The notes under the pieces are model-generated. The model was not told where the DNA came from and did no database searches. It saw only the letters and a list, made by a program, of their open reading frames with translations. Positions 1-59,212 of a stretch of DNA of 64,000 nucleotides are shown here, one piece after another. The position numbers and the translations under genes are program-made. Source of the stretch: Pelagomonas calceolata (lineage: Eukaryota). Within the stretch, counting starts at the first letter, position 1. Each line of letters starts with the position of its first letter. The DNA lies in the NCBI GenBank assembly GCA_918797485.1, contig CAKKNE010000006.1, forward strand, positions 3,162,001 through 3,226,000. Direction: 5' to 3'.

Positions 1-144
1 CAGGTCCGCCGCCCCGGCGTCGCCGCGCCAGCCATTCCTCGGCGCTACTTTCTGCCGCGCCGCGAGGCGTCCGACGACTGCTACGGCTGCCGCGGCGGCC
101 CACCACCACTTGTTGTGGCTCTGTCGTGCGCGCTTCCGCGGCAT
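1..144 (-). CDS. 5' end of a gene running off the window (partial, unknown product)
   Basis: ATG at 144-142 opens a stop-free frame MPRKRARQSHNKWWWAAAAAVAVVG... to the window edge; double-CTAG motif lies just upstream at 232-255. Confidence 0.4.
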   Translation of the reverse strand, partial: MPRKRARQSHNKWWWAAAAAVAVVGRLAARQKVAPRNGWRGDAGAADL

Positions 145-7600: not shown

Positions 7601-8355
7601 CGGCAGTCCGCGCTCGCCGCGTGCTCGACGTACTCCGGCGAGTAGTCTTTGCAGCAAGTGCATTTGTAGTAGGGCCGGCCGTTGCACTCCCCCGCCTCCT
7701 CGTAGAGCCCGTCGTACGAGCCCCAAAACAACGAAGTCTCGGTGCCCGCGACCTCGACGGCGTCGCACGGTTCCCCGGAGGCGGCGGCCGTCGCCTCCTC
7801 GTCCTTGTTGTCCTTGTCCTCGTCCTTGTCCTCGTCCACGTCGTTGTTGCCGTTGTTGCCGTTGTCCGTCGGCGGCGACGCCGTCGGCGGCGACGCCGGC
7901 GACGCCGTCGGCGGCGACGCCGTCGGCGGCGACGCCGTCGGCGGCGACGCCACGGGCCGCGGCGTCGGCCGCGGCGTCGGGCGCCGCGTCGGCGCCGGCG
8001 CAGAGGCCACGGGCCGCGGCGTCGGCCGGGGCGTCGGCCGCCGCGTCGGCCGCGGCGTCGGCCGCCGCGTCGGGCGCTGCGTCGGCCGCCGCGTCGGCGG
8101 CGCCGGCGTCGGCGCCGAGGCCGTGCAGTCGCCGCCGCAGACGTTCTCGTAGCGGTCGCAGTTCTGGCCGTTTGCGCTGAAGCCCGGCTTGCCGCCGTAG
8201 CTCGAGCAGGCCTTGCAGTCGCAGTTCCGGTTCGAGCACTCGGAGTCGCTGGACGAGTAGCAGAACTCGTCGCTTGCGCAGTGCTTGTTCTTGTTGCAGT
8301 CGCCCGCGCGGGCGAGCGGCGCGAGGCCCAGGAGGAGGATCAGCGGGGCGCGCAT
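4621..8355 (-). CDS. Large single-pass surface protein with Pro/Thr-rich stalk and repeated cytoplasmic VPxG modules
   Basis: Signal peptide, Cys-rich N-terminus, PTRR/PTPR/SPPTA repeats, TM LALLALLVSLVLTLFCCYF, 3 copies each of two ~45-aa modules. Confidence 0.8.
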   Translation of the reverse strand: MRAPLILLLGLAPLARAGDCNKNKHCASDEFCYSSSDSECSNRNCDCKACSSYGGKPGFSANGQNCDRYENVCGGDCTASAPTPAPPTRRPTQRPTRRPTPRPTRRPTPRPTPRPVASAPAPTRRPTPRPTPRPVASPPTASPPTASPPTASPASPPTASPPTDNGNNGNNDVDEDKDEDKDNKDEEATAAASGEPCDAVEVAGTETSLFWGSYDGLYEEAGECNGRPYYKCTCCKDYSPEYVEHAASADCRDDPDCRDDADRCMSDQPGWERGLHHYIFYSSAEGAWQLRRYEDGLWDELYSCTFTAVGYQLADAGGDLSPAASTGTWELYDFWTASWAPHAMTATCKADSSASAMSAEGFNEILAGERGWGLQTLALLALLVSLVLTLFCCYFSAKAVSGMLQASNAGGGKKKTSVARPWQVATMPGYELLGSPGPALAGHERTFFVKLPAGACAGSQVKCSTPTGAPVYFRAPAGSGPGQIVYVPWDTSLPTPSPRAGAHFVDDLPRPGAPPPPPPPSKTAAALPPPKTAAGLPPPPPSKTAAAPPPRPPGVPPGMIDLVVPPQAVPGVTRVRKDLPDGRSVEGVVPKGARPGDHFHVPVWSAIVLGHGFLALSAGQARPSTPENHTEIAETADEAADNLVASPQPPMARAAVDDLSDLDEATVEAIRAAVDHQERRELQRLAKLRGIKANQKSAVLVEELARRLAAHDAGARSATPPPPAVPVPAPVPASIPAVPKLDYRLLPPPRSAPGAPPPGMVDLVVPPQAVPGVTRVRKDLPDGRSVEGVVPKGARPGDHFHVPVWSAIVLRHGFLALSAGIQPREPAADDDNEFAPTEEAAPPGIPPVAGPEPAPEPAPAPLPPPAAAPPPAAASMVTVTVPEGARAGDQLSIPLPDGSEVMITVPPGARPGDDLEIPTGGAQTAPPPPLPPPAAAPPPAAASMVTVTVPEGARAGDELSIPLPDGSEVMITVPPGARPGDDLEIPTGGAQTAPPPPLPRPAAAPPPPPPPPSEATPPTTTEPEEAPSAERVGAYRVVPPGQPVPEHVAVGHVISVRPMDTSPPPLPLPAATPPPPPLPRPAATPPPPPLPRPAATPPPAAASMVTVTVPEGARAGDELSIPLPDGSEVMITVPPGARPGDDLEIPTGGAQTAPPPPLPRPAAAPPPPPPQRTPPGMVDLVVPPQAVPGVTRVRKDLPDGRSVEGVVPKGARPGDHFHVPVWSAILLRHGSLALEPSTPEEAAL

Positions 8356-8766
8356 GGCGCGGCTGCTTCGTGCTGCTCGTCGCTGCCTGGTGTCAGCTGG
8401 GCCGGGGCTCGAGCATGCTGCCCCGTCGACGCGGCGGGCTGCGCCCGTCCTCGGTGCCCCCCGGGCGCTTCGCTGCGGCCCCTGCCGATGCCGGCGCCGC
8501 GGGGTCTCGCGGATAGATGGCGCTGTGCTCTTACTTTTGGATTGTAGAGACTAGTATGATTTTACGCTCCAGAGCGGATGACGTCTCCATCGCTCGTGAT
8601 TTAAATCATACTGACATGAATCATAAAAAAATTAAGATGTACTAAAAACAGTTTCTATCTTCTTTGCGGCAAGCTCGCTTCTAGCGCCGCGCGCCGGAAG
8701 CGGCCGGGGCAGCCCGCCGCATCGACGGGGCGTCCTTGAGCACCGGCTCGGCTGAGACGTCGCAGC

Positions 8767-30440: not shown

Positions 30441-33400
30441 CTATATCGCGGCCAGGATCTCCTGTTTCTTCTGCTCGTACTCGGCCGGCGTGATGAACTC
30501 TTGAACCTCGTTGAGCTCCCTGAGGCGCTGCTGGGGGGACTTTGGATCCGAGGGAGCCGGGGGAGCCGGGGGAGCCGGATGCGCGCTCGAGCCAAACCAG
30601 CCCAGGTCCCAGGCCGACGCTGGCGTCGCGGGCGACACGGGCACGGCAGGCGACGTCGAGCCGAACCAGCTCCGGGCCACGTCCCAGGGCGTCGCTTGCG
30701 CGGGAGGGGGGCGGCACTCGACCTCGGCCTCGGGCCGATACCCCCGCCCGTGCTCGACCACGTATTTGAGCTCGTCGCGGAGCCGCCGGAGGTCCGGGTC
30801 GAACACCTCCGGAAAATCGAGCACGCGCAAGGCGCGGTCCAGCGGTTCTAGCCGCGACAACGGCGGCGGCGTCGCGGACGCGCCTGCGCCTTCGCACACC
30901 TCCTTGGCCATCCTTTCATACGCGAACAGCTTGTTCAGAATAGCCACCCCCAAGCCGACCGCGTACGGCTGCCCCTTAAGACGCTTAATGAACGGATGCG
31001 ACGCGCACATGGTCACCACGTGGGGCGGGGCAATTGGGGGCGGTTGCAGCCTGTTCGGGTTCGTGGCGCGGCGCTTGAGCTCGGGATCCCGCTGCAGGAG
31101 CAGGAAGGCGGTGTGGTCGTCCGTCATCCGGCCCAGCGGGATGATTTGCTCCGTGACACCATGCACCTGGCCGATGCCCGAGAACGACGAGCACGTCATA
31201 AGCACTTTTAGGTTCGAGCACGATTCCAGTAAACCCCGCAGTAACAGTCGACAGTGTTCTCTCGCTCGTTCTTTGTCGCCGGCCGTGACGACGAGTCGTT
31301 CAAAATCGTTCAGGACCACGAGCGTGGGCCCGGCGTGTGCCAAATGCGCCAGTGCGGAGGTGTCGAGCTCATGGGTGTCGAGGCGCGAATATGTCACGTG
31401 CTTGAAGATCCCCGCCGCTTCGTGCTGCTCCTGTTTGCGCTGTGCCTCCCTACTGTCCAGCGAGAAGTCGTCGTCGTCCGTGGAAGATCGCAGCCGCCTC
31501 GTGGACAGCGACGACGAGTACGTGCTCAGTCGCCGGTCGAGCGCCGCGCGCATGGGAGCCGCCTTCTGGATGACGTGCGCCGCAGCCTCGGCCACGTGGT
31601 GGAAGAAGCCGTCCCTTGTCGTGACTTTCACCCAGACGACGGCGTCGAAGTTCTGATGCTGTGAAACGTGAGCCGCCGCTTTTGCCGCCAGAGCGCTCTT
31701 ACCCGAGCCGTATCCACCACCAATCGTCGTGAGACGATGGTTGAGGATGGACTCGACGCAGAGCCATAACTCGGAATCCCGGCCCACGTAGAACGTCGGC
31801 GGCGGCGGCGCGTTCGAGGGCGGCGGCGGCCGCGTCGTTTCGTGGAACGACCCGGGGATCTCGGAGAAGATGGGCTCGTCGTGGGGTTGGTCCTCCGGGA
31901 GCAGTATGAAGCGCCCGTCGGAACCCTGCGTGTTTTGCGCCGCGGCGCAACCGATGTCGAAGGCTGTGCGTAACGAGTCCATATTAGCCAAAGATCGGTA
32001 GAACGCCCGGCAGAATTCTATGCCCGCGCGATCGGAAATTCTGCCATGGTTCTGGTTTTGCGCCACGGCAACCACGTGTTCCACGCCCGCGGCCACGAAC
32101 GCTCGCCCAACATCTTCGCTCTTGCACGAGTTTAACACCACCAATTTGCATGTCTCCGCGCCACAGGCCGACACCCGGTTTCTCAGCACCGTCGGGTCCA
32201 ATGTTTGCGCGCCGCCGTGGTCGTCTTCGAACATCATAAACTTTTCGTGGCCGTGGCCGGCAAAATGCACCACACGCGCCCCCAGCGTCACGGCCGACTG
32301 GAACGCGTCCACGGTGGCGGTGCGGATCTGGAGCTCAACGTCAATGTTCGCGTGAGCTGCGGCTTCGCGCAGCGCCTTCCGCAGCTTGTTGGCCTCGCCC
32401 TCGAGATTTAGTTTGGCGATCCCAGGGTTCAACGGCTCGCTCTGCAGCATGACGACGCGGTTCGCCAAAATCGCGCGGCTCGACTGCCGCTGCGGCGGCG
32501 AGCGGCTTGGCACAGGCGACGCAGGCCCGCCCGGTGGCGGCGAGGACGTCGCGCCGCCCGGCGGCGGCGAGGACGTCGCGCGCGGGACGTAGGCACCGTC
32601 GACGGCGCGGGCCGTCGACAGCGATAGCAGGACGCGTTGAAGGGCCTCCTGCTCGGTCGAGCTGTGGGCGACGAGATGCACCCGTTGGAGACCTGGATAC
32701 GCCATGTCGCCGATAGCCTTCACCGCGACTTTTAGCACGTTATCCAACGACTGTCTCCCGAGGCGGTTGCCCGCCGACAGCAGCGAAAATGCGACCGTCT
32801 TGCACTTGAGTCCATTGGCGCGCCGCATCGACGCTCGGTAGGCGTCCCTTAACAGATCGTCGCCCCTGGATAAATCATCGTCCATCTCCTTGTAGTTGGG
32901 ACCGACCGCGTGGATGATGGCTTCGCACCTCAGATAATTAAAGGGCCCGCCTGTGGTGACGACGGCGTCTCCCGTAAGACAGCGCGTGTCGCCGCTGATG
33001 ATGGGCAAGGCCTGGCGTTTCTCCGCTAATAACGCACCGCCGGCTCGTGAGATCGCCGCGTCCACGCCGGCGCCCTCGAGGCAGCTCTCTTTCACCGCGT
33101 TCACGAGCGCGTCCGTTTTTGCGTCCACCAGGCTTCCGGCCGAGGCCACTAACTCGCCGTATTTCAACGCGTGCCGCGCCAGGGGTACCAGGTTGTCGAC
33201 CAGTCCGCCGTGGTGATCCCAGTTATCGAAGTGGGCCTTGTGGTAGACTGGCTCCGTCCGTTGGATTCTTAGAGGTATTTCTTGGGGGGAGGGCGGGTCC
33301 GGCATCGTCTGGGCGCGCCGCACCGGGACGTACTCGCTGTTGAGGGCGAACTCCTCCGAGGCCGTTCGTCGCATATTGGAGGAGGCGTCCGAGAGGGGCG

Positions 33401-33494
33401 CCTCAGTTATTTCTGCTGCGCAGCGGTCCCGTACCTGGCGCGCCCGGATCGGCGCTCCAGGCTCCAGCGCCGGGCTCGCGCACCGGTCCGGCAT
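30441..33494 (-). CDS. Macro domain + CHAT (caspase-like) protease + STAND-like P-loop NTPase + SHOCT-like tail
   Basis: Macro: DALVNA, GAGVDAAISRAGG, GDAVVT, IIHAVGPNY, TVAFSLLSAG; CHAT: VVHFAGHG, LVVLNSC; NTPase: YVGRDSEL, GGYGSGKS, LVVLNDFE; tail ITPAEYEQKKQEIL. Confidence 0.88.
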   Translation of the reverse strand: MPDRCASPALEPGAPIRARQVRDRCAAEITEAPLSDASSNMRRTASEEFALNSEYVPVRRAQTMPDPPSPQEIPLRIQRTEPVYHKAHFDNWDHHGGLVDNLVPLARHALKYGELVASAGSLVDAKTDALVNAVKESCLEGAGVDAAISRAGGALLAEKRQALPIISGDTRCLTGDAVVTTGGPFNYLRCEAIIHAVGPNYKEMDDDLSRGDDLLRDAYRASMRRANGLKCKTVAFSLLSAGNRLGRQSLDNVLKVAVKAIGDMAYPGLQRVHLVAHSSTEQEALQRVLLSLSTARAVDGAYVPRATSSPPPGGATSSPPPGGPASPVPSRSPPQRQSSRAILANRVVMLQSEPLNPGIAKLNLEGEANKLRKALREAAAHANIDVELQIRTATVDAFQSAVTLGARVVHFAGHGHEKFMMFEDDHGGAQTLDPTVLRNRVSACGAETCKLVVLNSCKSEDVGRAFVAAGVEHVVAVAQNQNHGRISDRAGIEFCRAFYRSLANMDSLRTAFDIGCAAAQNTQGSDGRFILLPEDQPHDEPIFSEIPGSFHETTRPPPPSNAPPPPTFYVGRDSELWLCVESILNHRLTTIGGGYGSGKSALAAKAAAHVSQHQNFDAVVWVKVTTRDGFFHHVAEAAAHVIQKAAPMRAALDRRLSTYSSSLSTRRLRSSTDDDDFSLDSREAQRKQEQHEAAGIFKHVTYSRLDTHELDTSALAHLAHAGPTLVVLNDFERLVVTAGDKERAREHCRLLLRGLLESCSNLKVLMTCSSFSGIGQVHGVTEQIIPLGRMTDDHTAFLLLQRDPELKRRATNPNRLQPPPIAPPHVVTMCASHPFIKRLKGQPYAVGLGVAILNKLFAYERMAKEVCEGAGASATPPPLSRLEPLDRALRVLDFPEVFDPDLRRLRDELKYVVEHGRGYRPEAEVECRPPPAQATPWDVARSWFGSTSPAVPVSPATPASAWDLGWFGSSAHPAPPAPPAPSDPKSPQQRLRELNEVQEFITPAEYEQKKQEILAAI

Positions 33495-33951
33495 GGTCTG
33501 GGCTGGCTCCGTCTGTTTCCTGTTTTTGTGCTGTTTTGGTGCTGTTTTGGGTGCGGCTTGGACGGGGGCAGCCTCTGCCGCACTGGGCTTCTAAATCTTG
33601 AGCTTGCTTGCGCGCCCGTCCGGCTGGCTGGCACGGGGGGCAGCCCAGATGGCAGCCTGCCGCTGCTTCTGCCCCGCCGGGCCCGGGGATCTTGAGCTTC
33701 GGGCTAGTGTCTTACAGTCCCTAGTCCTAAGCATAGCAGCAGTCTTACAGGCCGCTAGCTTGAGGCCCCGAGACCCGGGAATCGCACGAGATATGGAACA
33801 GAGTAACACTCCCCCAAGGCTCGAGCCCTCCAGAGAACACTAGCGCAGAAAGCGACAAAGCCCGCGAGGCTGTATGACTCGGACAGTACCTAGTATCATG
33901 ATAAAAAATTTAAATGATAACGGCCAAATGCGAATAAAACGACGGCTGTTG

Positions 33952-36300
33952 TCACCGCCGCGCCTCGTATAAGAGCGCGACCGCGAGGACGTCAAGGACG
34001 AGGTGGACGACCGCGTCCAAGCGCACGTTCAGTACGAGGGCGTCCAGCGCCCCGCGCTCGGCCGCGTCGGCCGCCAGGCGCACGCCCCAGACCGCGGCGA
34101 GCGCTATCGCGAGCTGGCGCGGCTCGACGCTCGGCCCCAGGGCCCAGGGCGACGCGGGCGCGGAGGGCACCGCGGGCGTGGAGGGCGAGGCGACCGTGGA
34201 GGGCGACATGGGCGCGTCGAGCTGGAACTCGGGGGGCGGAGCCCAGGGCGACACGGTCGACGTGGGCGACGTGGGCGACGCGGGCGCGCCGTCGGGCCGA
34301 TACCTCCGCCCGTGCAGGACCACATGGTTGAGCTCCTCGCGGAGCCGCCGGAGGTCCGGGTCGAACAACTTCGGTTCGTCGAGCACGCGCAAGGCGCGGT
34401 CCAGCGGTTCGAGTTTCGACGCCGGCGGCAGCGTCTTGTGCGCGCCCGCGGCCTCGCATGCGGCCTTCGCCGCCTCTTCCGACGCAAACAGCTTGTTGAT
34501 TATAAGCACCGCCAGCGAGACCGCGAACGGCAGCCCATTGAGACGTTTCACGAACGGATGCGCCGCGTACGCGACGACCACGCTAGGAGGCGCAATTCGG
34601 GGCGATTGCCGCTTGAAGGGGTCCGTGGCGCGGCGCTTGAGCTCGGGGTTCCGCTGCAGGAGTAGGTACGCGGTGTCGGAAGGGGTCATCGGTCCGAGCG
34701 CGACGACCTGTTCCGTTACGCCCGGCACGAGGCCGATGCCCGAGCCCGACGAGCACGTCATCAGCACGCTGATGTTCGAGCAGCTTTCCAGTAAACCCCG
34801 CAGTAACAGTCGACAGCGTTCTCGCGCCGCTATCTGGGCCGCGGCGACACCCTGGCCCCCAAAGCCGTTCAGGACCAAATTTTCGAAATCGTTCAGGACC
34901 ACGAGCACCCTCCCGGCGCTCGCCAGGTCCACCAGGATGGAGGTGTCGAGCGCGGACGTGTCAGCCGTGTCAATAGAAGTACTCCTCTTCTTAATATGCA
35001 TCATTTTCTTGTTCATGGGATTCAGGTGGTCGTCCTCCGCCTTCTGGATGACGTACTTAGCCGCCTCGGCCACGTCGTCGAAGAAGCGGTCGGCGGTCGT
35101 GACGTTCACCCAGACCACCGCATCGAAGCGCCGGTGCTGCGACGCATAGTCCGCCGCTGCCATCGCCAGAGCGCTCTTACCCGAGCCGTATCCACCACCA
35201 ATCGTCGTGAGCCGATGCCGCAGCATGGACTCGACACACACACACTGGTCGGACGCCCGGCCGACGTAAAACGTCGGCGGCGCCGGCGCGTTCGAGGGCG
35301 GCGGCGGCCGCGTCGTCTCGCGGAACGACCCGGGGATCGGGGAGAAGATGGGCTCGTCGTGTGGTTTATCCTCCGGGAGCAGTATGAATTGTCCGTCGGA
35401 GCCCACCTCCCCGCGCATCTCCTTACGCGCGGCGGCGCAGCCAATATCAAAAGCTTTGCGCACCGAATCCATGTTCGCCAAAGATCGGTAGAACGCCTGG
35501 CAGAACGCGATGCCCGCGTGATCGGAAATCTTGCCATTATTCTGGTCCTGCGCCACGGCGACCACGTGTTCCACGCCCGCGGCCACGAGCGCGCGCCCAT
35601 TGGCTTCGCTGCTGCACGAGTTCAACACCACCAGTCGGCACGTGTGACGCCGGCCGGCGCCCGCCGACACCAGGCGCTGCAGCGCCTGCGGCTCCAGGGC
35701 CCGCGCGCCGCCGTGGCCGTCCTCGAACATCATGAATTTCTCGTGGCCGTGGCCCGCGATGTGCACGACGCGCGCCCCCAGCGTCATGGCCGATTGCAGC
35801 GCCTTCACGGTGGCGATGCCGACCTTGAGCTCGACGTCGACGTCGTTCGCGTAGGCGGCCTCGCGCAGCGCCTGTCGCAGCTTGTTGGCCTCGCCCTCGA
35901 GGTTCAGTTCGGCGAGCTTCGGGAGCTGGCGAATGTCGCCCCTTACCTTCAAATCGACGCCCAGCGGCTTGCTCAGCAGCACGTGGACGATGTTTGCCGG
36001 CGCCTTGGACGGCGGCGAAGGACTTTCGGATTCGTGACAAAGCATGGATGCCGTCTTAGTCCCGTGCTCGGGCCAGACCGTGTCGACGGCGCGGTCGTGG
36101 GCCGGCGAGCTCGGCCAGATCGAGTCGATCGCGAACTCCTCCGAGGCCGAGCGCCGCATATTTCTATTCGTGGAGGAGTCGTCCGAGAGGGGCACTGGCT
36201 CCGGCATCGTCTGGGCTCGCTGGACGAAGCGGTCCTTAAACGACGACGGATCGTGGTCCGCTTCGTTTTCCAGCGTCGGGGAGGCGCTCCGGTACGCCAT
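33952..36300 (-). CDS. CHAT protease + STAND-like NTPase, tandem paralog with hydrophobic C-terminus
   Basis: VVHIAGHG, LVVLNSC, YVGR, GGYGSGKS, LVVLNDFE; extensive identity to 30441-33494; no Macro domain; two hydrophobic C-terminal segments. Confidence 0.88.
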   Translation of the reverse strand: MAYRSASPTLENEADHDPSSFKDRFVQRAQTMPEPVPLSDDSSTNRNMRRSASEEFAIDSIWPSSPAHDRAVDTVWPEHGTKTASMLCHESESPSPPSKAPANIVHVLLSKPLGVDLKVRGDIRQLPKLAELNLEGEANKLRQALREAAYANDVDVELKVGIATVKALQSAMTLGARVVHIAGHGHEKFMMFEDGHGGARALEPQALQRLVSAGAGRRHTCRLVVLNSCSSEANGRALVAAGVEHVVAVAQDQNNGKISDHAGIAFCQAFYRSLANMDSVRKAFDIGCAAARKEMRGEVGSDGQFILLPEDKPHDEPIFSPIPGSFRETTRPPPPSNAPAPPTFYVGRASDQCVCVESMLRHRLTTIGGGYGSGKSALAMAAADYASQHRRFDAVVWVNVTTADRFFDDVAEAAKYVIQKAEDDHLNPMNKKMMHIKKRSTSIDTADTSALDTSILVDLASAGRVLVVLNDFENLVLNGFGGQGVAAAQIAARERCRLLLRGLLESCSNISVLMTCSSGSGIGLVPGVTEQVVALGPMTPSDTAYLLLQRNPELKRRATDPFKRQSPRIAPPSVVVAYAAHPFVKRLNGLPFAVSLAVLIINKLFASEEAAKAACEAAGAHKTLPPASKLEPLDRALRVLDEPKLFDPDLRRLREELNHVVLHGRRYRPDGAPASPTSPTSTVSPWAPPPEFQLDAPMSPSTVASPSTPAVPSAPASPWALGPSVEPRQLAIALAAVWGVRLAADAAERGALDALVLNVRLDAVVHLVLDVLAVALLYEARR

Positions 36301-36765
36301 AGGTCGGGCAGCCTCCTCTGACTACAATTCTGAAAGCTGTGGTGTACCGCCGCGAACGCAAAATCACGGACGCGTCGCAGCCGTCGCGGACGCGGGGCAG
36401 CCTCCCTCTGTCTGCCGCTTGAAATCTGGTGTATACCCGCGCGCACGCACCATCACGCGGACGGCTCCGCCGCAGCCGTCGCCGACGCCTCGCGCCCCGC
36501 CGGGACGCCTCCCGGGAGTCCCGGTAGACGCGCCTATTCAGCTTGTCGTCAACATCGTTCAACCAATCTGCTCCCACACATTGACTTCTTCGGTCCGACG
36601 CGCGACGCCGCGACGCAACGAGCGGCGCCCCGGCGCGCGCTGCCCCGCGCGCCGCGCCGCCTCGGAGGCCCCCTTCGTGCAGCCAGCGCCGGGCGCCCCG
36701 GGAAGGCTGCCTGCTGCTCTCTCAGCTTGAAGCCCATCAAGGGCGCCGCGCGCGCGACGTCGACG

Positions 36766-48905: not shown

Positions 48906-49314
48906 GGTTGTCGGGGGAGCTGCGGCGCTCGTCAGGCGAACCTGTGATGAGTTAGGCTGGCGCTGCGGCGAGTGTCGATTTTGAGTGGAGGGCAAGGAGC
49001 TAGCGGCTGTGAGGCACTAGGCAAGGCAAAACAGCAGGAGGGAGGGCGTTTCCAATTCCCGAGACGCGTCTCGTCCCCGCCGGAAGGATCGGCGCGCATT
49101 TGGATCCAAAATCAGCGGCTGTCACTTTACCAAAAGCCAAGTGCTTATCACTTCCTGTTGCTGCCGGTTGAAGCTGCGTGCCCGCCTAGCAGCCAGGAGC
49201 AGGCGCGGCGGAAAGCCGTAACGACGCGCGCTGCAGCGCGCTTGTGTGTAACCGTTCTCCGGATTCCCCGCTGCTCCTGATTTTCCCAATCTTAGTGACT
49301 AGCGCTGCTGCGCC

Positions 49315-50136
49315 ATGGCCGAGCACCTGCAGGTGGCGGATGCTGACACGGCAGCATTACAAGCGCGGCTCGACGCGCTGGAGAGCGAGACGCACTCGCT
49401 GCGCGAGGTCCTCACGGAGCGGCTCAAGCGCGACTCCTTGGACGAGGCCCTGCCGACGGGGCGCGGGCAGCGGCGGTCGCGCGACAAGCCGCGAGGTTCG
49501 AGAAGTTCCCGCGGCTCGTTTGAGCGAAGATCGCGGTCGCCGGAGCCGCCGTCGGGCGGCCGGTTCCGGTGGGTCCGCGGCGACGACGACGCCAAGAGTT
49601 TGGCGCGACTCGTGGTCGGCGCCGCGATGCCCGACGCCGTCGTCGGCTTCCCCGTGGACCTGCACGCGAAGTACGAGGCGAACGTGAATACGGCGCTGAA
49701 GGGCGTCGCGATCGCGGCGCGGCGCTGCCTCGAGGACCGCGACTTACATTTAGCCTGCGCGCCGCGGTTCCGGGACAACCGCAACGAGCTCACGGCGAGC
49801 GTCTACCCTCTTCTGGAACGACCTCCCGACCCGGACGCGCCCGACGTCGAGGTCCTGACCGTCGCGCGCGCGACGGACTACCGCGTCCTTGCGGGTGCGG
49901 TCGCGAAGCGCGCGCGCGACGGGCAAACTTCTCGGTTAAGAGCCATCGGCGCCGCCGCCGTGTTTACCGCTGCTAGAGCGGTCGCGACGGCGCGCGAGTA
50001 CCTGGCCGACGACGCGACGCGCTCGTCGGTGGCCTGCGTGCCGCGCTTCGCAACCGTACAGTTCGACGGCCGCGCGGAAGAGACGACGATCCTCGAGGTC
50101 GTCGTCTTCCGCGTCGCCGTCGACTCCGACGACTAG
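49315..50136 (+). CDS. Tandem SpoVS-like (Alba-fold) domain protein
   Basis: VLTVARATDYRVLAGAVA...LRAIGAAAVFTAARAVATAREYL...CVPRF, plus a degenerate N-terminal copy (NVNTALKGVAIA...CAPRF). Confidence 0.75.
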   Translation: MAEHLQVADADTAALQARLDALESETHSLREVLTERLKRDSLDEALPTGRGQRRSRDKPRGSRSSRGSFERRSRSPEPPSGGRFRWVRGDDDAKSLARLVVGAAMPDAVVGFPVDLHAKYEANVNTALKGVAIAARRCLEDRDLHLACAPRFRDNRNELTASVYPLLERPPDPDAPDVEVLTVARATDYRVLAGAVAKRARDGQTSRLRAIGAAAVFTAARAVATAREYLADDATRSSVACVPRFATVQFDGRAEETTILEVVVFRVAVDSDD

Positions 50137-54122: not shown

Positions 54123-55145
54123 TCACCCGTAGATGTCGTCGTCGTCGTCGGCGCCGCCGCCGTCGCCGTCGAGGTGCGCCCAGGGATTCTCCGCGGGCGG
54201 CGGCGGCCGCGCGGGGTTCGGCCGCGGCGGCGCGACGCCGCCGCGGAGCACGTCGAACATGTCCGGTACGCCGCCTTGACCGCCCATGAGTTGGGCCATC
54301 AGCTGCGGGTCGAAGGGCATGGGCCCGGGCAGCGGCAGGTCCGGCACCGGTTGTGGTTGCGGCGCCGCCCAGGGGTTCGGCAGCGGCGCGTCCGGGTCCG
54401 CATTCACAGAAGGCGCACTCGCACCGCCGCTCGACACGGCCATGCCCTCGAAGCCCTCCATGAGCGGTTCCTGGACCTCGGAGTACATCCTCCTTAAGGC
54501 ATTAAACCCTTCTGGGTGGTTTTCTAATTGAGATAAAGCCAGATCCTGGTGGCGCATGGCTTCTCTAGCTCGTGCTGGATTCCTGGCGACCTCGACGGCC
54601 TCCCTGAGCAAGTTGGGATCCTGCAAGGCATGCCGCAGCTGCGGATTCGCGTCCATTGCCCTCCTGAGTTGGGGATTGGCGTTGACCATCTGTCTGAGTA
54701 AATTCGGGTCATCTAACAAACTTCTAGTGAACGGGCTATCGAGGATCCTCGCGGTGAGCTCGGGGTCGCTCATCAGACGTCTCTGTAACGATGCCGGGTC
54801 ACTTGGTAATTGCATGCCGTGCAAACCACCTGCTAATAGACCATTCGCGGCCAACTGCGGTTGTTGCGGAGGCGCTTGCGGCTGTCGCGGCGGCGCCCTC
54901 AGTAAGTGTATGGTACACTGGTCGGTGACGTCGTACTCCGTTAAGAGGTCACCATCTTGTAAGGCCCTACCTTTATAGATGAGGCGCTGCTCCGCCGCCG
55001 GCACGTCCGCCGGCGTCTCACATTTTTCTTTGAACTCGAGTACTGACGCGGCCCTCGACACTACGAGCTGGAAATGCTTGCCCGTCGACGTCTTCACGAC
55101 GAGGGTCATGTCGACGCCCGGGGTTGTGGCGGTCATCGTTGCCAT
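54123..55145 (-). CDS. Ubiquilin/DSK2-like protein (UBL + STI1 repeats) lacking the UBA domain
   Basis: UBL: EQRLIYKGRALQD...CTIHL; STI1: NPQLR, ALSQLENHPEGFNALRRMY, PLPNPW; ends DDDDIYG. Confidence 0.88.
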   Translation of the reverse strand: MATMTATTPGVDMTLVVKTSTGKHFQLVVSRAASVLEFKEKCETPADVPAAEQRLIYKGRALQDGDLLTEYDVTDQCTIHLLRAPPRQPQAPPQQPQLAANGLLAGGLHGMQLPSDPASLQRRLMSDPELTARILDSPFTRSLLDDPNLLRQMVNANPQLRRAMDANPQLRHALQDPNLLREAVEVARNPARAREAMRHQDLALSQLENHPEGFNALRRMYSEVQEPLMEGFEGMAVSSGGASAPSVNADPDAPLPNPWAAPQPQPVPDLPLPGPMPFDPQLMAQLMGGQGGVPDMFDVLRGGVAPPRPNPARPPPPAENPWAHLDGDGGGADDDDDIYG

Positions 55146-55394
55146 CGTCTTTACGTCTGCGGCGACGGCGTGGGGTGCTTTTTGTTTGGAGGTCTCTGAG
55201 AGCTGATGGGTTTCAGAGAGACCGAGGGCCGTTGCGCGGCTCGCGGTCGACACGAGGCGCTGGCGGGTTCGCCCAGGCAAGCGGGAGAGAGCTCGCCTGA
55301 ACCGGTAGCGCCGGCGTTGGCTGCGTTTTTGGGCAGGAGCTGGAGCCCAGATTATTTTCTAGTGTGTTACTTCTGTTAGCTAAGTTTACCCTCA

Positions 55395-56261
55395 TTACGC
55401 CGTCGGAGACGACGGAGCGCGCCCGAGAGACCCTCCACCGAAATCGCGCCATCGCGAGGAGCGCCTCCGGAAAATCCGACACACAACAAATGCGGCGACG
55501 CCCACCGCGGCGCCCGTCAGATGTGCGCCGTGGCCGATATTATCCTGAGCGTCGATGAGGCGCCACTCGTGCACGAAATAGAAGCACGAACTCACGACGT
55601 GCAGCACCGCGTTGGCGTCGCACCGCCTTCCGAGAAGCAGCGCCTCGGCGACGACGCAGGTGTCGATGGCCACGAACGCTGACACTCCGGCGGAGGCGCC
55701 TATGGAGCGAATATTTTCGTTCACTTTTTTCGCCACGGCGTGCACGGCCGTCCTCCGCGCCTCGTCGAACGCCTTGGAGATTTTGTCGCCCAGGCGCTCA
55801 CCCACCACCTCCGAGGCACCCGAGAGGTTGAAGACCCGTCGGACCCGCTCGCCGATGCCCCACCGCTCGACGATGCGCTCGAGGCGCTGCGTGCCAAAGT
55901 CGAAGGGGTCCAGGGCCGCCGCGATGCCCGCGGCGACGTACGTCACCATCGCTCCGTTGACGCCTAAGGTGTCCGTTGCCGCCGGCCCGGCGACGAGGAT
56001 CGACTGCAGGTTGGACAGCGCGTGCGCCTGGTTCCCGTGCAAGAGCATGTAACTCGCCGTCGTCCACCAGCGGCCCTCGCGCAACGCCTGCCGGCTGAAC
56101 GTGAAGTGCTTTTCCAGCGTATTCATAGAGAGCGGCAGCGCTATTGACAAACGCGGCTCCCTTCCAGAGGCAGCTGCGAGTGTCGGTATTAGCGCGTGCA
56201 GCGCCAATAAAGGCGAGAAGTCGCCGGCAAACGCCACGACGCGTTCGAACGAGCGGTTCAT
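55395..56261 (-). CDS. Rhomboid-family intramembrane serine protease
   Basis: GRWWT, HGNQAHALSN, GASAG (catalytic Ser), HGAHLTGAAVG (catalytic His); ATG overlaps the LYR gene stop. Confidence 0.87.
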   Translation of the reverse strand: MNRSFERVVAFAGDFSPLLALHALIPTLAAASGREPRLSIALPLSMNTLEKHFTFSRQALREGRWWTTASYMLLHGNQAHALSNLQSILVAGPAATDTLGVNGAMVTYVAAGIAAALDPFDFGTQRLERIVERWGIGERVRRVFNLSGASEVVGERLGDKISKAFDEARRTAVHAVAKKVNENIRSIGASAGVSAFVAIDTCVVAEALLLGRRCDANAVLHVVSSCFYFVHEWRLIDAQDNIGHGAHLTGAAVGVAAFVVCRIFRRRSSRWRDFGGGSLGRAPSSPTA

Positions 56262-56488
56262 CACTTCTTGGACTTGTTCAGGCTCTTCATCACGAGGTAG
56301 TTCGACAGCGCGCGGACCGCGTCCGCTTTCAGCTTCGAGATCTCGGCCGCGTCCGTCACGCCAATATGTTTGCGGAAGCCGTCCTTGACGACTTGCTTGA
56401 GCGCTCGGCCCTTCGCCGAGTCGCCTCCAATATGATGCGCCGTGCGCAGGCAGTCGCGGAAGAGTTGTAGTGTTGTGCGCTCGAGCAT
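56261..56488 (-). CDS. LYR-motif (Complex1_LYR) small mitochondrial protein
   Basis: TLQLFRDCLR...VKDGFRKH...DAVRALSNY; 75 aa. Confidence 0.87.
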   Translation of the reverse strand: MLERTTLQLFRDCLRTAHHIGGDSAKGRALKQVVKDGFRKHIGVTDAAEISKLKADAVRALSNYLVMKSLNKSKK

Positions 56489-56859
56489 CGGCCGCTGCTG
56501 GGCCTGCACCGCGTCTAGACTACGAACAAATGGCAGCAAAGCTTTGCTCGACAGCGTGGCTGCTGGAGAGTAACTCCAAGGCCTTCGAAGCCTGCCGCAC
56601 CACGCGTTTAGCAGCGTTGGCAACTTGCGAGAGCTTCCTAGTGTGTCTAACCATTAGCTAATCACAGGCTCGGCTTTGTTGCGGCTGCTCAGGCACGCGC
56701 GAGTCGCGCAGGACTCGTTCGGGCGATCTCGGTACTCGCCACAGCGCCTGCTCACGCGCGCGGCTCATAACTGTCGCCAGATTTGGCGTACAGGTGCGGT
56801 GCTCTCTGAGAGCACTGTTCAGCAGCCTCAAAATCCGTGCGCGCGGCCTCGCGACAGCC

Positions 56860-57716
56860 ATGGCCGCCATGGCTGGCGGTAGCACTAAGCGCGCTATCGT
56901 CGAGATCATCAGTGATGTTGTGTGACCCTTCTGCTGGGTCGGCAAGCGCAACCTCGAGACTGCGCTCCGATCCACGGGCGTCCAGGCGCGCGTCCACTGG
57001 AAGGCCTTCCAGCTGAACCCCGGCGCCTCGGACACGCCCTCCAATAAACTCGAGATGTACATGTCCAAGTTCGGTTTCGAAGCGGTGTCCGTGATCGGTC
57101 GTCGAGAGCACTGCTGGCCCCCGGCACGCCATCGCGGCGATGGCGGGCGAGAGCACCCATCGCTACGCAGGCATGGGCCGCGACCAGGTGCTGCGCATGA
57201 CGGCGGGCATGCGCCAGAACTTTGCGAATGTGGGCCTCCCCTACGCGTTCACGGATCAAGGTCTTGTGGCGAACACGATGGACGCGCACCGCGTGCTCGC
57301 GTGGTGTGGTTCGCCGGAAGCGCAGGACAAGGCCGTCCGTAGCTCGGTGTCCTGCGAATTGGACGTCGAGAATGCGGCCGCGACGATGGCGTGGAGGTCA
57401 CCAAATTCTCCGCAATCGTTCTCAGGATAACCAAACGCAGGTCGAGGTCATATTCAACGGGTACTTCGCCGAGGAGCGCGCCCCGAACGACCGCGACCTG
57501 CTCATTGAGGCGTGCGTCGCCGCGGGCAAGTCCGAAGCGGATGCAAGAGCTTTCTTGGACGACAAGTCGGCCATGCGCGACCAGGTCCAGCGGGAATTAA
57601 GTGAAGCGCGGGGCGTCCGCGGCGTGCCGCACTTCGTCATCCGCCAGCCGGGGCGCGACCCCGTGCAGATCAGCGGCGCCCAGCCGCCGGAGATCTTCGA
57701 GCGCGCTCTGCAGTGA
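56860..57716 (+). CDS. DsbA/FrnE-family thioredoxin-fold selenoprotein; exons 56860-57073, 57171-57334, 57441-57716; Sec at TGA 56923-56925
   Basis: EIISDVV-TGA-PFCWVGKR aligns to the family CPxC site; FQLNP, NTMDAHR, VRGVPHF, ISGAQP; two GT-AG introns keep frame (218 codons). Confidence 0.9.
57074..57170 (+). other. GT-AG intron 1 of the DsbA gene
   Basis: Removal gives SKFGMGRDQV; contains acgccatcgcggcg motif. Confidence 0.8.
57335..57440 (+). other. GT-AG intron 2 of the DsbA gene
   Basis: Removal gives QDKAVEVIFNGYF; contains the intron motif in antisense (cgcgacgatggcgt). Confidence 0.8.
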
Positions 57717-57726
57717 AGCGCTACAT

Positions 57727-57788
57727 CGGTGCTGTGTATGACGGGCCACTACTACCCGTGGTGATGGCCCCGACAAGAAACGGCGCCG
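57727..57788 (+). promoter_or_regulatory. SECIS-like element in the 3'UTR of the DsbA selenoprotein gene
   Basis: Helix I cggtgctgt/acggcgccg (9 bp incl. G-U), ATGA at 57738-57741 with GA at 57772-57773, helix II gggcca-ctac / gtgg-tggccc. Confidence 0.8.
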
Positions 57789-57861
57789 CCGGCGCGTGGA
57801 TATAATTGTGTCTTGCTTTAGAGCGGCGCGACGACGGGGTCGGTGTCACAACATCACAAAC

Positions 57862-58977
57862 TTACGGAGGCTTGGGGGCGTTCGGCGGCGGCGGCGGCGG
57901 GGGACTGTCAGGACCACTAGCGGCGGCTCGCACCTCTCTCTCAACATCAACTAACGCCGTCATCGTCCGCCACCACAGCTCCCTTTGTTCTTCGTCGTCA
58001 AAACAAAGGTCGAGGGACCGGTCCTGCGTGACCAGTGAGAGATATTTGCCCTCATCTTTAACTTTTCCCGTCCTCCTTAAAACGTCGGTGTCCCTACCAC
58101 GAGAAATGCGTATTACCGAAGCCAGCTCGACGCCTTGTATTGAGGTACGTTTGCCCTTCCAGGTCAGGTACATGTACAGATACATGTCTCCTTGCACCAG
58201 TGATAGCTGGAAGGTTTTTTTGGAGGGCCGGCCCGATCTAAAAGGGTGCTTCGTCACACTGACACCGGTAGTTGTTAAAGCCTCAAACAATGAATACTCC
58301 TTCTCCGCGAGCGTCGCTCGTATGGTATACATGGTCGCCGCCATCGCGGTGTACGTCGTCCCGGGCGAACATAGGATCCTTTCGGCCGCCTTCCGCCGGT
58401 CCTCATTTTCGGTATCTTGTACAATGTGATGATGTTTATAGTCGGGCAGCACGGCCTCGCGCCACCAGAAGGGACCCCTTAGTCTGTATAACTCATCAGC
58501 AAAGGTGTGGTGGTACCAGGCCTGCAAGTCTTCCCTCGCATTGGCCCTGGCATGGAGGGTCCACTGCTCCTTGTCCATGGCTTGCCGCTCCCGATTCGCG
58601 TCTCGCACATATGAAACCCACCGGTCTCTCGCTGTCGTTAATCTGGACATGTTCCGTCGTCTCACGAGATTCTGCACTTTGTAACTCCCGTGCTCCACTC
58701 TTCTATCGCGAGCAAAGACGCGCAGGCGTTCTCGTACCGCGTCGACCTCGCGCTCCAGCGCTCTTATGTGAGCCACGGGGTCCAGCTCCTCGTTGAGGTG
58801 CGCGAGGCCATCCTTTTGACTTTGAGGGTTCGCGGCGGCGGCGTTGAGCTCGTTCTCATCGAGGGGCGATGGCGGCGCCGGCGGGGCCGCGTCGCTGGTT
58901 TGCTTCTTTGCCGAGCTTGGGGGCTTCTTTTCGGACGCCGTCGCCATCGGTGCGTCGTTTTTGGACGGCTTTGCCAT
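57862..58977 (-). CDS. Coiled-coil + C-terminal PH-domain protein
   Basis: GVSVTKH...LTW...IRISRG...YLSLVTQDRSLDLCFDDEEQRELW (PLC-type PH pattern). Confidence 0.78.
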   Translation of the reverse strand: MAKPSKNDAPMATASEKKPPSSAKKQTSDAAPPAPPSPLDENELNAAAANPQSQKDGLAHLNEELDPVAHIRALEREVDAVRERLRVFARDRRVEHGSYKVQNLVRRRNMSRLTTARDRWVSYVRDANRERQAMDKEQWTLHARANAREDLQAWYHHTFADELYRLRGPFWWREAVLPDYKHHHIVQDTENEDRRKAAERILCSPGTTYTAMAATMYTIRATLAEKEYSLFEALTTTGVSVTKHPFRSGRPSKKTFQLSLVQGDMYLYMYLTWKGKRTSIQGVELASVIRISRGRDTDVLRRTGKVKDEGKYLSLVTQDRSLDLCFDDEEQRELWWRTMTALVDVEREVRAAASGPDSPPPPPPPNAPKPP

Positions 58978-59212
58978 CGGTGCGCGTCGCGCCGCGCCGG
59001 CGTGCGCAAATGGGGTGCCCTTGGCCCCCCAGGCTTGCAAAATGAACTGCGAGCCAGAAGCGCTCGCTGGCGTTCTGGGCTGCGTCAGCTGTGATGGCTG
59101 GCGCCTCGCCTTGCCCGTGGGCAGCCCTTGCACGCGCTTTGCGGCGGCTGGCGGCCCAAAAAAAGGTGAATGCTAGTGTCTCTACGGCCGCTAGCCTCTG
59201 GCGGCGGCCTAG

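What the first reader, a model, noticed from the sequence alone, without database searches (positions are those of the whole stretch)
56860..57788. Hidden selenoprotein: DsbA/FrnE-like with UxxC active site and an atypical SECIS
Seen: an in-frame TGA sits exactly at the first redox Cys position (SDVV-U-PFC), homology continues past it, and a SECIS-shaped hairpin begins 11 nt after the stop. Its apical loop (tacCC) lacks the usual unpaired AA. Known: UGA recoding needs a 3'UTR SECIS with an AUGA/GA kink-turn, pelagophytes are selenoprotein-rich, and CC-type apical loops exist. The gene is absent from the ORF track and would probably be mis-annotated.
Basis: partly seen in the sequence, partly recalled or inferred. 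Interest (0 to 1): 0.72.

Follow-up and report, generated by a model that had tools for sequence, protein, structure and literature searches.

The report
Algal selenoprotein with a headless SECIS
This expressed gene, likely from a marine pelagophyte alga, keeps an internal UGA stop codon exactly where related DsbA/FrnE redox enzymes have their catalytic cysteine, so it likely encodes a selenocysteine protein of an already known family; the unusual part is its predicted recoding hairpin, whose top loop is tiny and shows no shared AA or CC signature across the seven related versions compared.

Summary
The gene has three exons and encodes 217 aa, with in-frame TGA at codon 22 (SDVV-U-PFC). PolyA RNA reads (four runs, one sample) show both introns spliced, the TGA unchanged, and the hairpin inside the 104-nt 3'UTR. 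All 121 homologues covering the site have Cys there; all 8 close loci covering it keep TGA. Sec-DsbA/FrnE is a published algal selenoprotein family, so the protein is ordinary. The hairpin keeps helix I, an invariant UGAC/CGA core and an 11-14 pair helix II with compensatory changes in 7 distinct versions, one of them Aureococcus-like. Its apex is a 3-6 nt variable loop: CC in 3 of 7, AA in 1 of 7. None of the 7 passes my re-implementation of the four SECISearch1 patterns. Best reading: a likely functional SECIS with no conserved apical motif. Sec insertion is not shown, no genome was held, other selenoprotein genes were untested, and the key Aureococcus paper was unavailable. The scan's earlier notes hold nothing similar.

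The parts
56680..56859 (+). 5'UTR (start approximate), no upstream ATG
   Evidence: read depth begins in bin 56651-56701; the only ATG in 56670-56870 listed is 56860
56860..57073 (+). coding exon 1 (residues 1-71): strand beta1, UPFC site, helix alpha1
56923..56925 (+). in-frame TGA, codon 22, likely selenocysteine (first redox Cys position)
   Evidence: unchanged in RNA reads; Cys in 121 of 121 covering homologues; TGA in 8 of 8 covering close loci
57074..57170 (+). intron 1, 97 nt, GT..AG; absent from most relatives
   Evidence: 121 joint reads; present in L006, absent in L001-L005, L007, L008
57171..57334 (+). coding exon 2
   Evidence: matches spliced relative P0001
57335..57440 (+). intron 2, 106 nt, GT..AG; absent from most relatives
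   Evidence: 148 joint reads; present in L009, absent in L001-L008
57441..57716 (+). coding exon 3 with the GVPHF loop (Pro189) and stop TGA 57714-57716
57717..57820 (+). 3'UTR, 104 nt, poly(A) added behind 57820
   Evidence: 5 reads with an A tail in run X23; depth falls to 0 in the next bin
57727..57789 (+). predicted SECIS element; helix I is 57727-57735 paired with 57781-57789
57738..57742 (+). 5' core strand A-UGAC
   Evidence: UGAC invariant in 7 of 7; preceded by A in 6 and G in 1
57743..57770 (+). helix II (11 pairs and one C.A mismatch) with its loop
57755..57758 (+). apical tetraloop CCCG; no AA, sequence not conserved in orthologues
57771..57774 (+). 3' core strand CGAC
   Evidence: CGA invariant in 7 of 7; last letter C or G

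Best explanation
This is a spliced, polyadenylated three-exon gene whose in-frame UGA at codon 22 is likely read as selenocysteine, giving a predicted DsbA/FrnE-fold thiol-disulfide oxidoreductase with a U-P-F-C active site, and recoding is likely directed by a 3'UTR hairpin that keeps the SECIS core and stems but has no conserved AA or CC at its top. Shown: gene structure, UGA in the mature RNA, alignment of the UGA to the catalytic Cys, conservation of UGA and hairpin in relatives, and a hairpin inside the transcript about 610 nt downstream of the UGA. Inferred from established eukaryotic Sec biology: SBP2 binds the tandem G.A kink-turn (UGAC/CGAC) and recruits eEFSec with Sec-tRNA to the ribosome at codon 22. 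The selenolate would be the attacking nucleophile at the start of helix alpha1, Cys25 would resolve it, and Pro189 would face the site. The terminal UGA is only 21 nt before the core, below the 51-111 nt minimum reported in mammals, which would explain why it still stops. Inferred and untested: the contact with the apical loop, made in mammals by eEFSec domain 4, is here made by shape (a small loop on 11-15 nt of helix) rather than by A or C bases, or is dispensable. The element may be a weak one. Likelihoods: Sec at codon 22 about 0.93; this hairpin as its SECIS about 0.88; no base-specific apical motif about 0.7.
For: RNA: both introns spliced, TGA unchanged, hairpin within the transcript. 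Protein: PF01323 on all three exons; best solved relatives FrnE 5cnw and SCO1869 3gl5. A model of the intronless relative L001 (about 92% identical to the window protein, Cys for Sec) has pLDDT 94, residue 22 just before helix 23-39, and TM 0.83-0.84 to 3gl5/5coh. Of the best 150 representatives, 121 cover positions 19-25 and all 121 have Cys at 22; Pro189 is kept in 144 of 144. TGA is kept in 8 of 8 close loci covering the site (7 distinct; down to 64% identity to P0001) while third codon positions are only 55-69% identical to the window in the two loci measured. 15 of 16 bacterial-type loci checked show TGC/TGT there and one gave no motif match. Hairpin: present in 8 of 8 close loci with a 3'UTR; 84.5% of cells paired, 5 of 12 pairs with double-sided changes, 0 of 500 shuffles reach the number of paired or doubly changed cells; the + strand folds better than its reverse complement in 6 of 7. 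Helix 2 length (11-16 bp) and G/Y at its first pair match the published consensus. Sec-DsbA/FrnE is reported in algae.
Against: No selenium labelling, mass spectrometry or ribosome profiling. No genome was held, so tRNA-Sec, SBP2 and eEFSec were not checked; the window has no tRNA gene. Rfam gives no SECIS match at E up to 10 for the window stretch or for 6 loci. The 3' core reads CGAC/CGAG, not the KGAW consensus, and the loop is below the 8-nt minimum of the SECISearch3 filter. Covariation rests on 7 related sequences: the slide control at -1 also gave 5 doubly changed pairs, further pair types did not beat the shuffles (255 of 500), and the structure was derived from these sequences. All 7 loops have a C at position 1 or 2, so a single-C determinant is not excluded. 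All raw reads come from one sample. Public Aureococcus models splice the TGA out with a GT donor; keeping U-P there needs a GC donor, which I could not test with reads.
Confidence: 0.85

Rival explanations
1. Selenoprotein as above, but the SECIS is a degenerate member of the known C-type class (as in human SelM, SelO, TR3): an unpaired C, or an A/C run freed when the top pairs breathe, serves as the apical motif.
For: The window element fits NTGA-13-CC-15-GA, at both limits of the published pattern. All 7 loops have a C at position 1 or 2; CC in 3 of 7.
Against: 4 of 7 loops have no CC; 5 of 7 miss the published spacing; 0 of 7 pass the loose+ pattern, which allows CC. The top pairs covary (A-U/U-A at the last pair) and have low predicted unpaired probability, 0.3 or less. 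A C among two positions is common at this GC content.
Confidence: 0.25
2. UGA is read through as Cys, Trp or Arg by near-cognate tRNAs or a variant code, and the hairpin has another job (3' end formation or stability between two convergent genes).
For: No direct evidence of selenium; no Rfam SECIS match; the hairpin lies just before the poly(A) site and the end of the opposite-strand neighbour.
Against: TGA is also this gene's terminal stop, in the window and in 7 of the 8 loci with a 3' end. The unpaired UGAC/CGA core is invariant while the stems vary. The neighbour's reads end at about 57824-57870 and do not cover the hairpin. Keeping TGA rather than TGC/TGT in all relatives makes sense only if TGA gives a different residue.
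Confidence: 0.04
3. The TGA is a real stop: the gene is a pseudogene, or translation restarts downstream and makes a protein without an active site.
For: Gene callers give exactly such truncated products for relatives (P0001 and most of the 69 hits).
Against: The frame is intact on both sides of the TGA, with 55-67 synonymous against 17-43 non-synonymous codon differences to L001 and L004; the RNA is spliced and well covered; the same TGA persists to the Aureococcus-like locus L007.
Confidence: 0.03

Closest known systems
Algal and invertebrate Sec-containing DsbA/FrnE family (PMC7539508, PMC6627142, PMC3473315; passages read)
   Same: DSBA domain with Sec at the first redox Cys; DSBA is listed among the most widely distributed algal Sec proteins, and Sec-FrnE is reported in Mamiellophyceae and Mesostigma.
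   Different: No difference shown at protein level. I could not align to the published Sec sequences (supplement unreadable), so the exact subfamily match rests on the shared domain and motif.
Aureococcus anophagefferens DSBA-like protein (KAH8050272.1, KAK7239770.1, EGB03851.1)
   Same: Closest named relative (its cluster is 58-66% identical to P0001/L001). Locus L007 matches KAH8050272.1 at 189 of 191 residues and has the same TGA and the same kind of hairpin.
   Different: Public models drop U and P (DIV-FCW) or start after the site. L007 has an intron right behind the TGA and lacks the window's two introns; its loop is GCC and the 3' side of its internal loop is C-rich, not A-rich.
Deinococcus FrnE (PDB 5cnw, 5coh) and Streptomyces SCO1869 (3gl5)
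   Same: Same predicted fold (TM 0.83-0.84), CPxC site at helix alpha1, conserved Pro loop.
   Different: Sec instead of Cys at the first position; 31-34% identity; no C-terminal cysteine tail (last Cys is residue 151). The role of that tail in FrnE is recalled, not read here.
Eukaryotic type I SECIS, and the CC-type SECIS of human SelM, SelO and TR3 (PMC2647825, PMC2761289, PMC3753652)
   Same: 3'UTR position, helix I, internal loop, R-UGA/GA core, helix II within 11-16 bp, G-C as first pair above the core.
   Different: No run of A and no conserved CC at the apex; loop 3-6 nt rather than 8 or more; no helix 3; 3' core CGAC/CGAG instead of KGAW, with a C.C apposition closing the core in 7 of 7.

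Membership tests
DsbA/FrnE-like oxidoreductase (PF01323) | DSBA domain above the curated cut-off | tested here: met
   exons 1 and 3 score 36 and 43.3 bits (cut-off 25.6); exon 2 scores 15.5 and fills the profile gap
DsbA/FrnE-like oxidoreductase (PF01323) | thioredoxin fold with a helical insertion | tested here: met
   model of relative L001, pLDDT 94, TM 0.83-0.84 to 3gl5 and 5coh; a stand-in, not the window protein
DsbA/FrnE-like oxidoreductase (PF01323) | (C/U)xxC at the start of helix alpha1 and a conserved Pro loop | tested here: met
   U22-P-F-C25 before helix 23-39; Pro189 in 144 of 144 covering homologues; cis geometry not checked
Deinococcus-type FrnE with a C-terminal cysteine tail | C-terminal Cys pair (feature recalled) | tested here: not met
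   Cys only at 25, 117, 151; 31 of 124 representatives have such a pair
Periplasmic DsbA | signal peptide for export | tested here: inconclusive
   strand beta1 begins at residue 12 after a short polar leader, with no hydrophobic stretch by eye; no predictor was run
DsbA/FrnE-like oxidoreductase (PF01323) | thiol-disulfide exchange activity | not testable with these tools
   needs an enzyme assay
Eukaryotic selenoprotein | in-frame UGA in the mature mRNA | tested here: met
Eukaryotic selenoprotein | UGA aligns to Cys in homologues, with conservation on both sides | tested here: met
   121 of 121 covering homologues among the best 150
Eukaryotic selenoprotein | UGA conserved in orthologues | tested here: met
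   8 of 8 close loci covering the site; L009 does not reach it
Eukaryotic selenoprotein | Sec machinery (tRNA-Sec, SBP2, eEFSec) in the genome | not testable with these tools
   no genome held
Eukaryotic selenoprotein | selenium in the protein | not testable with these tools
   needs labelling or mass spectrometry
Canonical eukaryotic SECIS (type I or II) | in the 3'UTR, more than 51-111 nt downstream of the Sec codon | tested here: met
   inside the transcript; about 609 nt in the spliced RNA; limit
Canonical eukaryotic SECIS (type I or II) | invariant UGA/GA tandem preceded by a purine | tested here: met
   7 of 7; kink-turn geometry itself untested
Canonical eukaryotic SECIS (type I or II) | helix I, internal loop, helix II of 11-16 bp | tested here: met
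   11-14 predicted pairs and a helix I in 7 of 7; compensatory changes
Canonical eukaryotic SECIS (type I or II) | 3' core consensus KGAW (not invariant in print) | tested here: not met
   CGAC or CGAG in 7 of 7
Canonical eukaryotic SECIS (type I or II) | unpaired AA(R) 10-13 nt above the core | tested here: not met
   0 of 7 at that spacing; one loop has AA further on
CC-type SECIS (SelM, SelO, TR3) | conserved unpaired CC at the apical position | tested here: not met
   CC in 3 of 7 loops, 2 of 7 at the published spacing, 0 of 7 pass loose+
Canonical eukaryotic SECIS (type I or II) | apical region of 8-30 nt (SECISearch3 filter) | tested here: not met
   predicted loops are 3-6 nt (filter); SECISearch3 itself was not run and may partition the stem differently
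Canonical eukaryotic SECIS (type I or II) | directs UGA recoding and binds SBP2 | not testable with these tools
   needs a reporter or binding assay

The most novel reading that the evidence does not exclude
Pelagophyte algae recode UGA with a 'headless' SECIS: a kink-turn core plus a plain 11-15 nt stem capped by any small loop. The apical A/C motif that eEFSec domain 4 reads in animals would be dispensable across their large selenoproteomes, their eEFSec or SBP2 would have changed to match, and pattern-based searches would undercount selenoprotein genes in these abundant marine algae.
Probability: 0.3. Interest if true: 0.72.

Novelty: new variant of a known kind. Interest (0 to 1): 0.45.

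Why it matters
The protein is a routine annotation fix: one more Sec-DsbA/FrnE that gene callers truncate or splice around. The hairpin matters more. The apical AA (rarely CC) is treated as an essential SECIS feature, is hard-coded in all four SECISearch1 patterns, and is the reported contact site of eEFSec domain 4. Seven natural versions that keep the core and stems but freely change a 3-6 nt loop give a ready-made series to test whether that contact is base-specific or needed at all. If the trait extends to other genes, SECIS-first searches would miss selenoproteins in a selenium-dependent algal group.

Tried and rejected
No whole genome is held for the window, and none for five loci tried as handles, so the Sec machinery and other SECIS elements of this organism were not examined. 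Rfam found no SECIS in window 57600-58200 or in 6 loci at E up to 10. A covariance model from the 7 elements found only its own 9 training copies (38.6-52.2 bits); the next match in 81 kb scored 15.8 bits, so there is no sign of a second such element in the window. Alternative 3' core UGAU at 57762-57765, which fits KGAW: rejected, it leaves a 4-pair stem of -3.7 kcal/mol. Alternative AA-type candidate starting at GTGA 57761: rejected, it is a sequence-pattern match only, its two arms do not pair by eye, and L001, L002 and L004 have no such match downstream. The first DNA alignment misplaced L007 and was redone core to core; my regex also picked the wrong 3' core for L007, corrected. Viral contigs: 18 pattern matches, none a relative. 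GTDB genomes: 11 distant loci (32-37%), no Sec form seen. NCBIfam: nothing near a cut-off. Metatranscriptome contigs support both splice joints in environmental relatives, but 99 variant rows were not shown and coverage of the hairpin was thin, so I draw nothing from them about the TGA or the SECIS. The Aureococcus entries seen in the SECISearch3 supplement (8 of 16 places, four candidates) are low-scoring new-gene candidates, not this family. Gobler 2013 and 2011 are not held and the supplement of PMC7539508 could not be read; any of them may already show this hairpin type. L010-L020 (11 of 20 loci, 28-35% identity, bacterial or fungal-like) were left out of the TGA and hairpin counts as non-orthologues.

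Full report
Verdict. The gene, its in-frame TGA, both introns and the 3'UTR hairpin are real. The protein is a likely selenoprotein of a published family. Function is not shown, and I could not read the paper most likely to have described it.

Gene and transcript. The + strand frame opens at ATG 56860 and meets TGA at codon 22 in the context SDVV-U-PFC. Pfam DSBA matches the three exons in order, and the best solved relatives are FrnE and SCO1869. Four polyA runs of one sample (6-12% of each run read) bridge introns 57074-57170 and 57335-57440 with 121 and 148 reads, list no other letter at the TGA at a depth of 36-50, start near 56680 and end with a poly(A) tail behind 57820. The spliced frame is 217 codons with a single internal stop. 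These reads may come from the strain that was assembled: suitable for testing the transcript, not independent of the strain.

Organism. No genome is held. The window is 59-74% GC, relatives occur in seawater metatranscriptomes, and the closest named proteins are from Aureococcus anophagefferens. A pelagophyte is inferred; I do not name a species.

Is the UGA selenocysteine? Of the best 150 representatives of a full HMMER scan, 121 cover positions 19-25 and all 121 have Cys at 22 (72 CPWC, 45 CPFC, 4 CPYC); 29 do not cover the site. Among 70 word-search hits, 64 do not cover it. Many begin just behind it, as expected if gene callers stop at a UGA, though their DNA was not seen and some are mere fragments. 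Of 20 metagenome loci, 9 are close relatives (64-95% to P0001). The 8 that reach the site all have TGA (7 distinct), although third codon positions are only 69% and 55% identical to the window in L001 and L004. Bacterial-type loci have TGC or TGT in 15 of 16, one giving no motif match. A model of the intronless relative L001 places residue 22 just before helix alpha1 of a FrnE-like fold (pLDDT 94, TM 0.83-0.84). L007 matches an Aureococcus protein at 189 of 191 residues. Public models of that protein read DIV-FCW; a GC donor two bases behind the TGA would restore U-P-F-C, which is inferred and untested.

The hairpin. In the window it has helix I (9 pairs, from 57727), an internal loop, the core A-UGAC / CGAC, an 11-pair helix II with one C.A mismatch, and the loop CCCG. 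It folds at z = -3.5 and is the only such architecture on either strand of the window (1 hit; 0.04 per shuffled window; pattern set after the fact). All 8 close loci with a 3'UTR carry it 16-25 nt behind the stop, giving 7 distinct versions with the window (L003 repeats L001, L005 repeats L004). UGAC and CGA are invariant. Helix II is 84.5% paired, with double-sided changes in 5 of 12 pairs; 0 of 500 shuffles reach the paired or doubly changed cell counts, but 13 reach the pair count, 255 reach the pair-type count, and the -1 slide also gives 5 changed pairs. The support is good but comes from few, related sequences.

The apex. The loops are CCCG, CCCAAA, UCUG, UCAUC, CUCG, GCC and CUUUA: 3-6 nt, CC in 3 of 7, AA in 1 of 7, on a 5' arm of 11-15 nt. 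Two of 7 fit the published NTGA-10..13-CC-15..39-GA spacing and none its AA form. None passes my re-implementation of the upper part of the four SECISearch1 patterns, all are below the 8-nt loop filter of SECISearch3 (the program itself was not run), and Rfam reports no SECIS. Against this reading: every loop has a C at position 1 or 2, the consensus allows a run of A or C, and short loops were allowed in a Trypanosoma search that still required AA, AG or CC.

Mechanism. Shown: expression, splicing, UGA at the catalytic position, hairpin in the 3'UTR about 609 nt downstream. From established knowledge: SBP2 binds the G.A kink-turn and recruits eEFSec with Sec-tRNA (passages), and eEFSec domain 4 contacts the apical loop (passage; the cryo-EM paper behind it is recalled, not read). 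Inferred: Sec22 attacks substrate disulfides and Cys25 resolves, probably in the cytosol as no signal peptide is evident; the terminal UGA, 21 nt before the core, is too close to be recoded (mammalian minimum 51-111 nt); the apical contact is read by shape or lost. In human reporters two CC-type elements (SelO, TR3) are among the six weakest, so this element may be weak and the gene low in the selenium hierarchy. That is speculation.

Comparison with what is known. DSBA is listed among the most widespread algal Sec proteins (PMC7539508, passages), Sec-FrnE in Mamiellophyceae (PMC6627142, passages) and Sec-DsbA in marine invertebrates (PMC3473315, passages). The protein is a new member of that kind. 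For the SECIS I read PMC3753652 (passages, and supplement part 1 and passages), PMC2375036, PMC2761289, PMC8704476, PMC4989117, PMC1557815, PMC12861234, PMC10778597 (passages) and PMC2647825 (main text). These treat apical adenines, rarely cytosines, as conserved 'with few exceptions', and say only UGA/GA is invariable. Eight searches listed no paper describing a pelagophyte SECIS without an apical motif. The library lacks Gobler 2013 and 2011 (seen only as references) and one supplement was unreadable, so prior description cannot be excluded. The element works like a SECIS on the evidence but fails the membership test for both canonical AA and CC types.

Earlier scan notes. None on this genome or sequence; the one word hit concerns a bacterial SECIS and was not used.

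Scores. Interest 0.45; new variant of a known kind, for the RNA element. Lineage-wide headless SECIS: probability 0.3, interest 0.72 if true.

Noticed in passing
window 57074-57170 and 57335-57440; L001-L009: Both introns vary in presence among close relatives: intron 1 is in the window and L006 only, intron 2 in the window and L009 only. L002, L004, L006 and L008 are collinear with the window beyond the transcript start, so they are DNA, not mRNA. The introns share short motifs and intron 1 has an internal palindrome. This suggests recent gain by introner-like elements, which are reported for pelagophytes (passage in PMC9481584); terminal repeats and target duplications were not tested.
   Followed up: partly
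L007:887-953: The Aureococcus-like locus has an intron right behind the TGA codon. Public gene models use the GT just before the TGA as donor and so delete U and P; a GC donor at 892 would keep U-P-F-C.
   Followed up: partly
window 57775-57780; L001, L002, L004, L006, L009: The 3' side of the internal loop below the core is A-rich (AAGAA to AAAAAA) in 6 of 7 elements but C-rich in L007. It might stand in for apical adenines in one sub-lineage, or only keep the loop open.
   Followed up: no
window 57742 and 57771: The core is closed by a C.C apposition in 7 of 7 elements and ends in C or G rather than A/U: a possible lineage signature useful for a tailored SECIS search.
   Followed up: partly
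window 57820-57870; L001-L003, L009: The gene and its convergent neighbour (436-codon frame 57862-59172, - strand, no Pfam match) end within about 50 nt of each other; in four relatives roughly 40 nt of this spacer are missing.
   Followed up: partly
window 55395-56519 (- strand): A rhomboid-domain gene lies head to head with the selenoprotein gene, followed by a ubiquilin-like gene at 54123-55358; collinearity upstream holds in L004 and L006.
   Followed up: no
window 30441-33590 and 33952-36321 (- strand): Two tandem genes with a CHAT protease domain and a STAND/NACHT-like NTPase, the first also with a Macro domain; they look like NLR-type immunity or cell-death genes.
   Followed up: no
window 49303-50136 (+ strand): A frame with a strong match to bacterial SpoVS (PF04232, 70.6 bits) in an algal genome.
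   Followed up: no
window 4621-8550 (- strand): A 1309-codon frame with a weak DnaJ C-terminal match and internal repeats (identical 33-nt pieces at 4967, 5447 and 5651).
   Followed up: no
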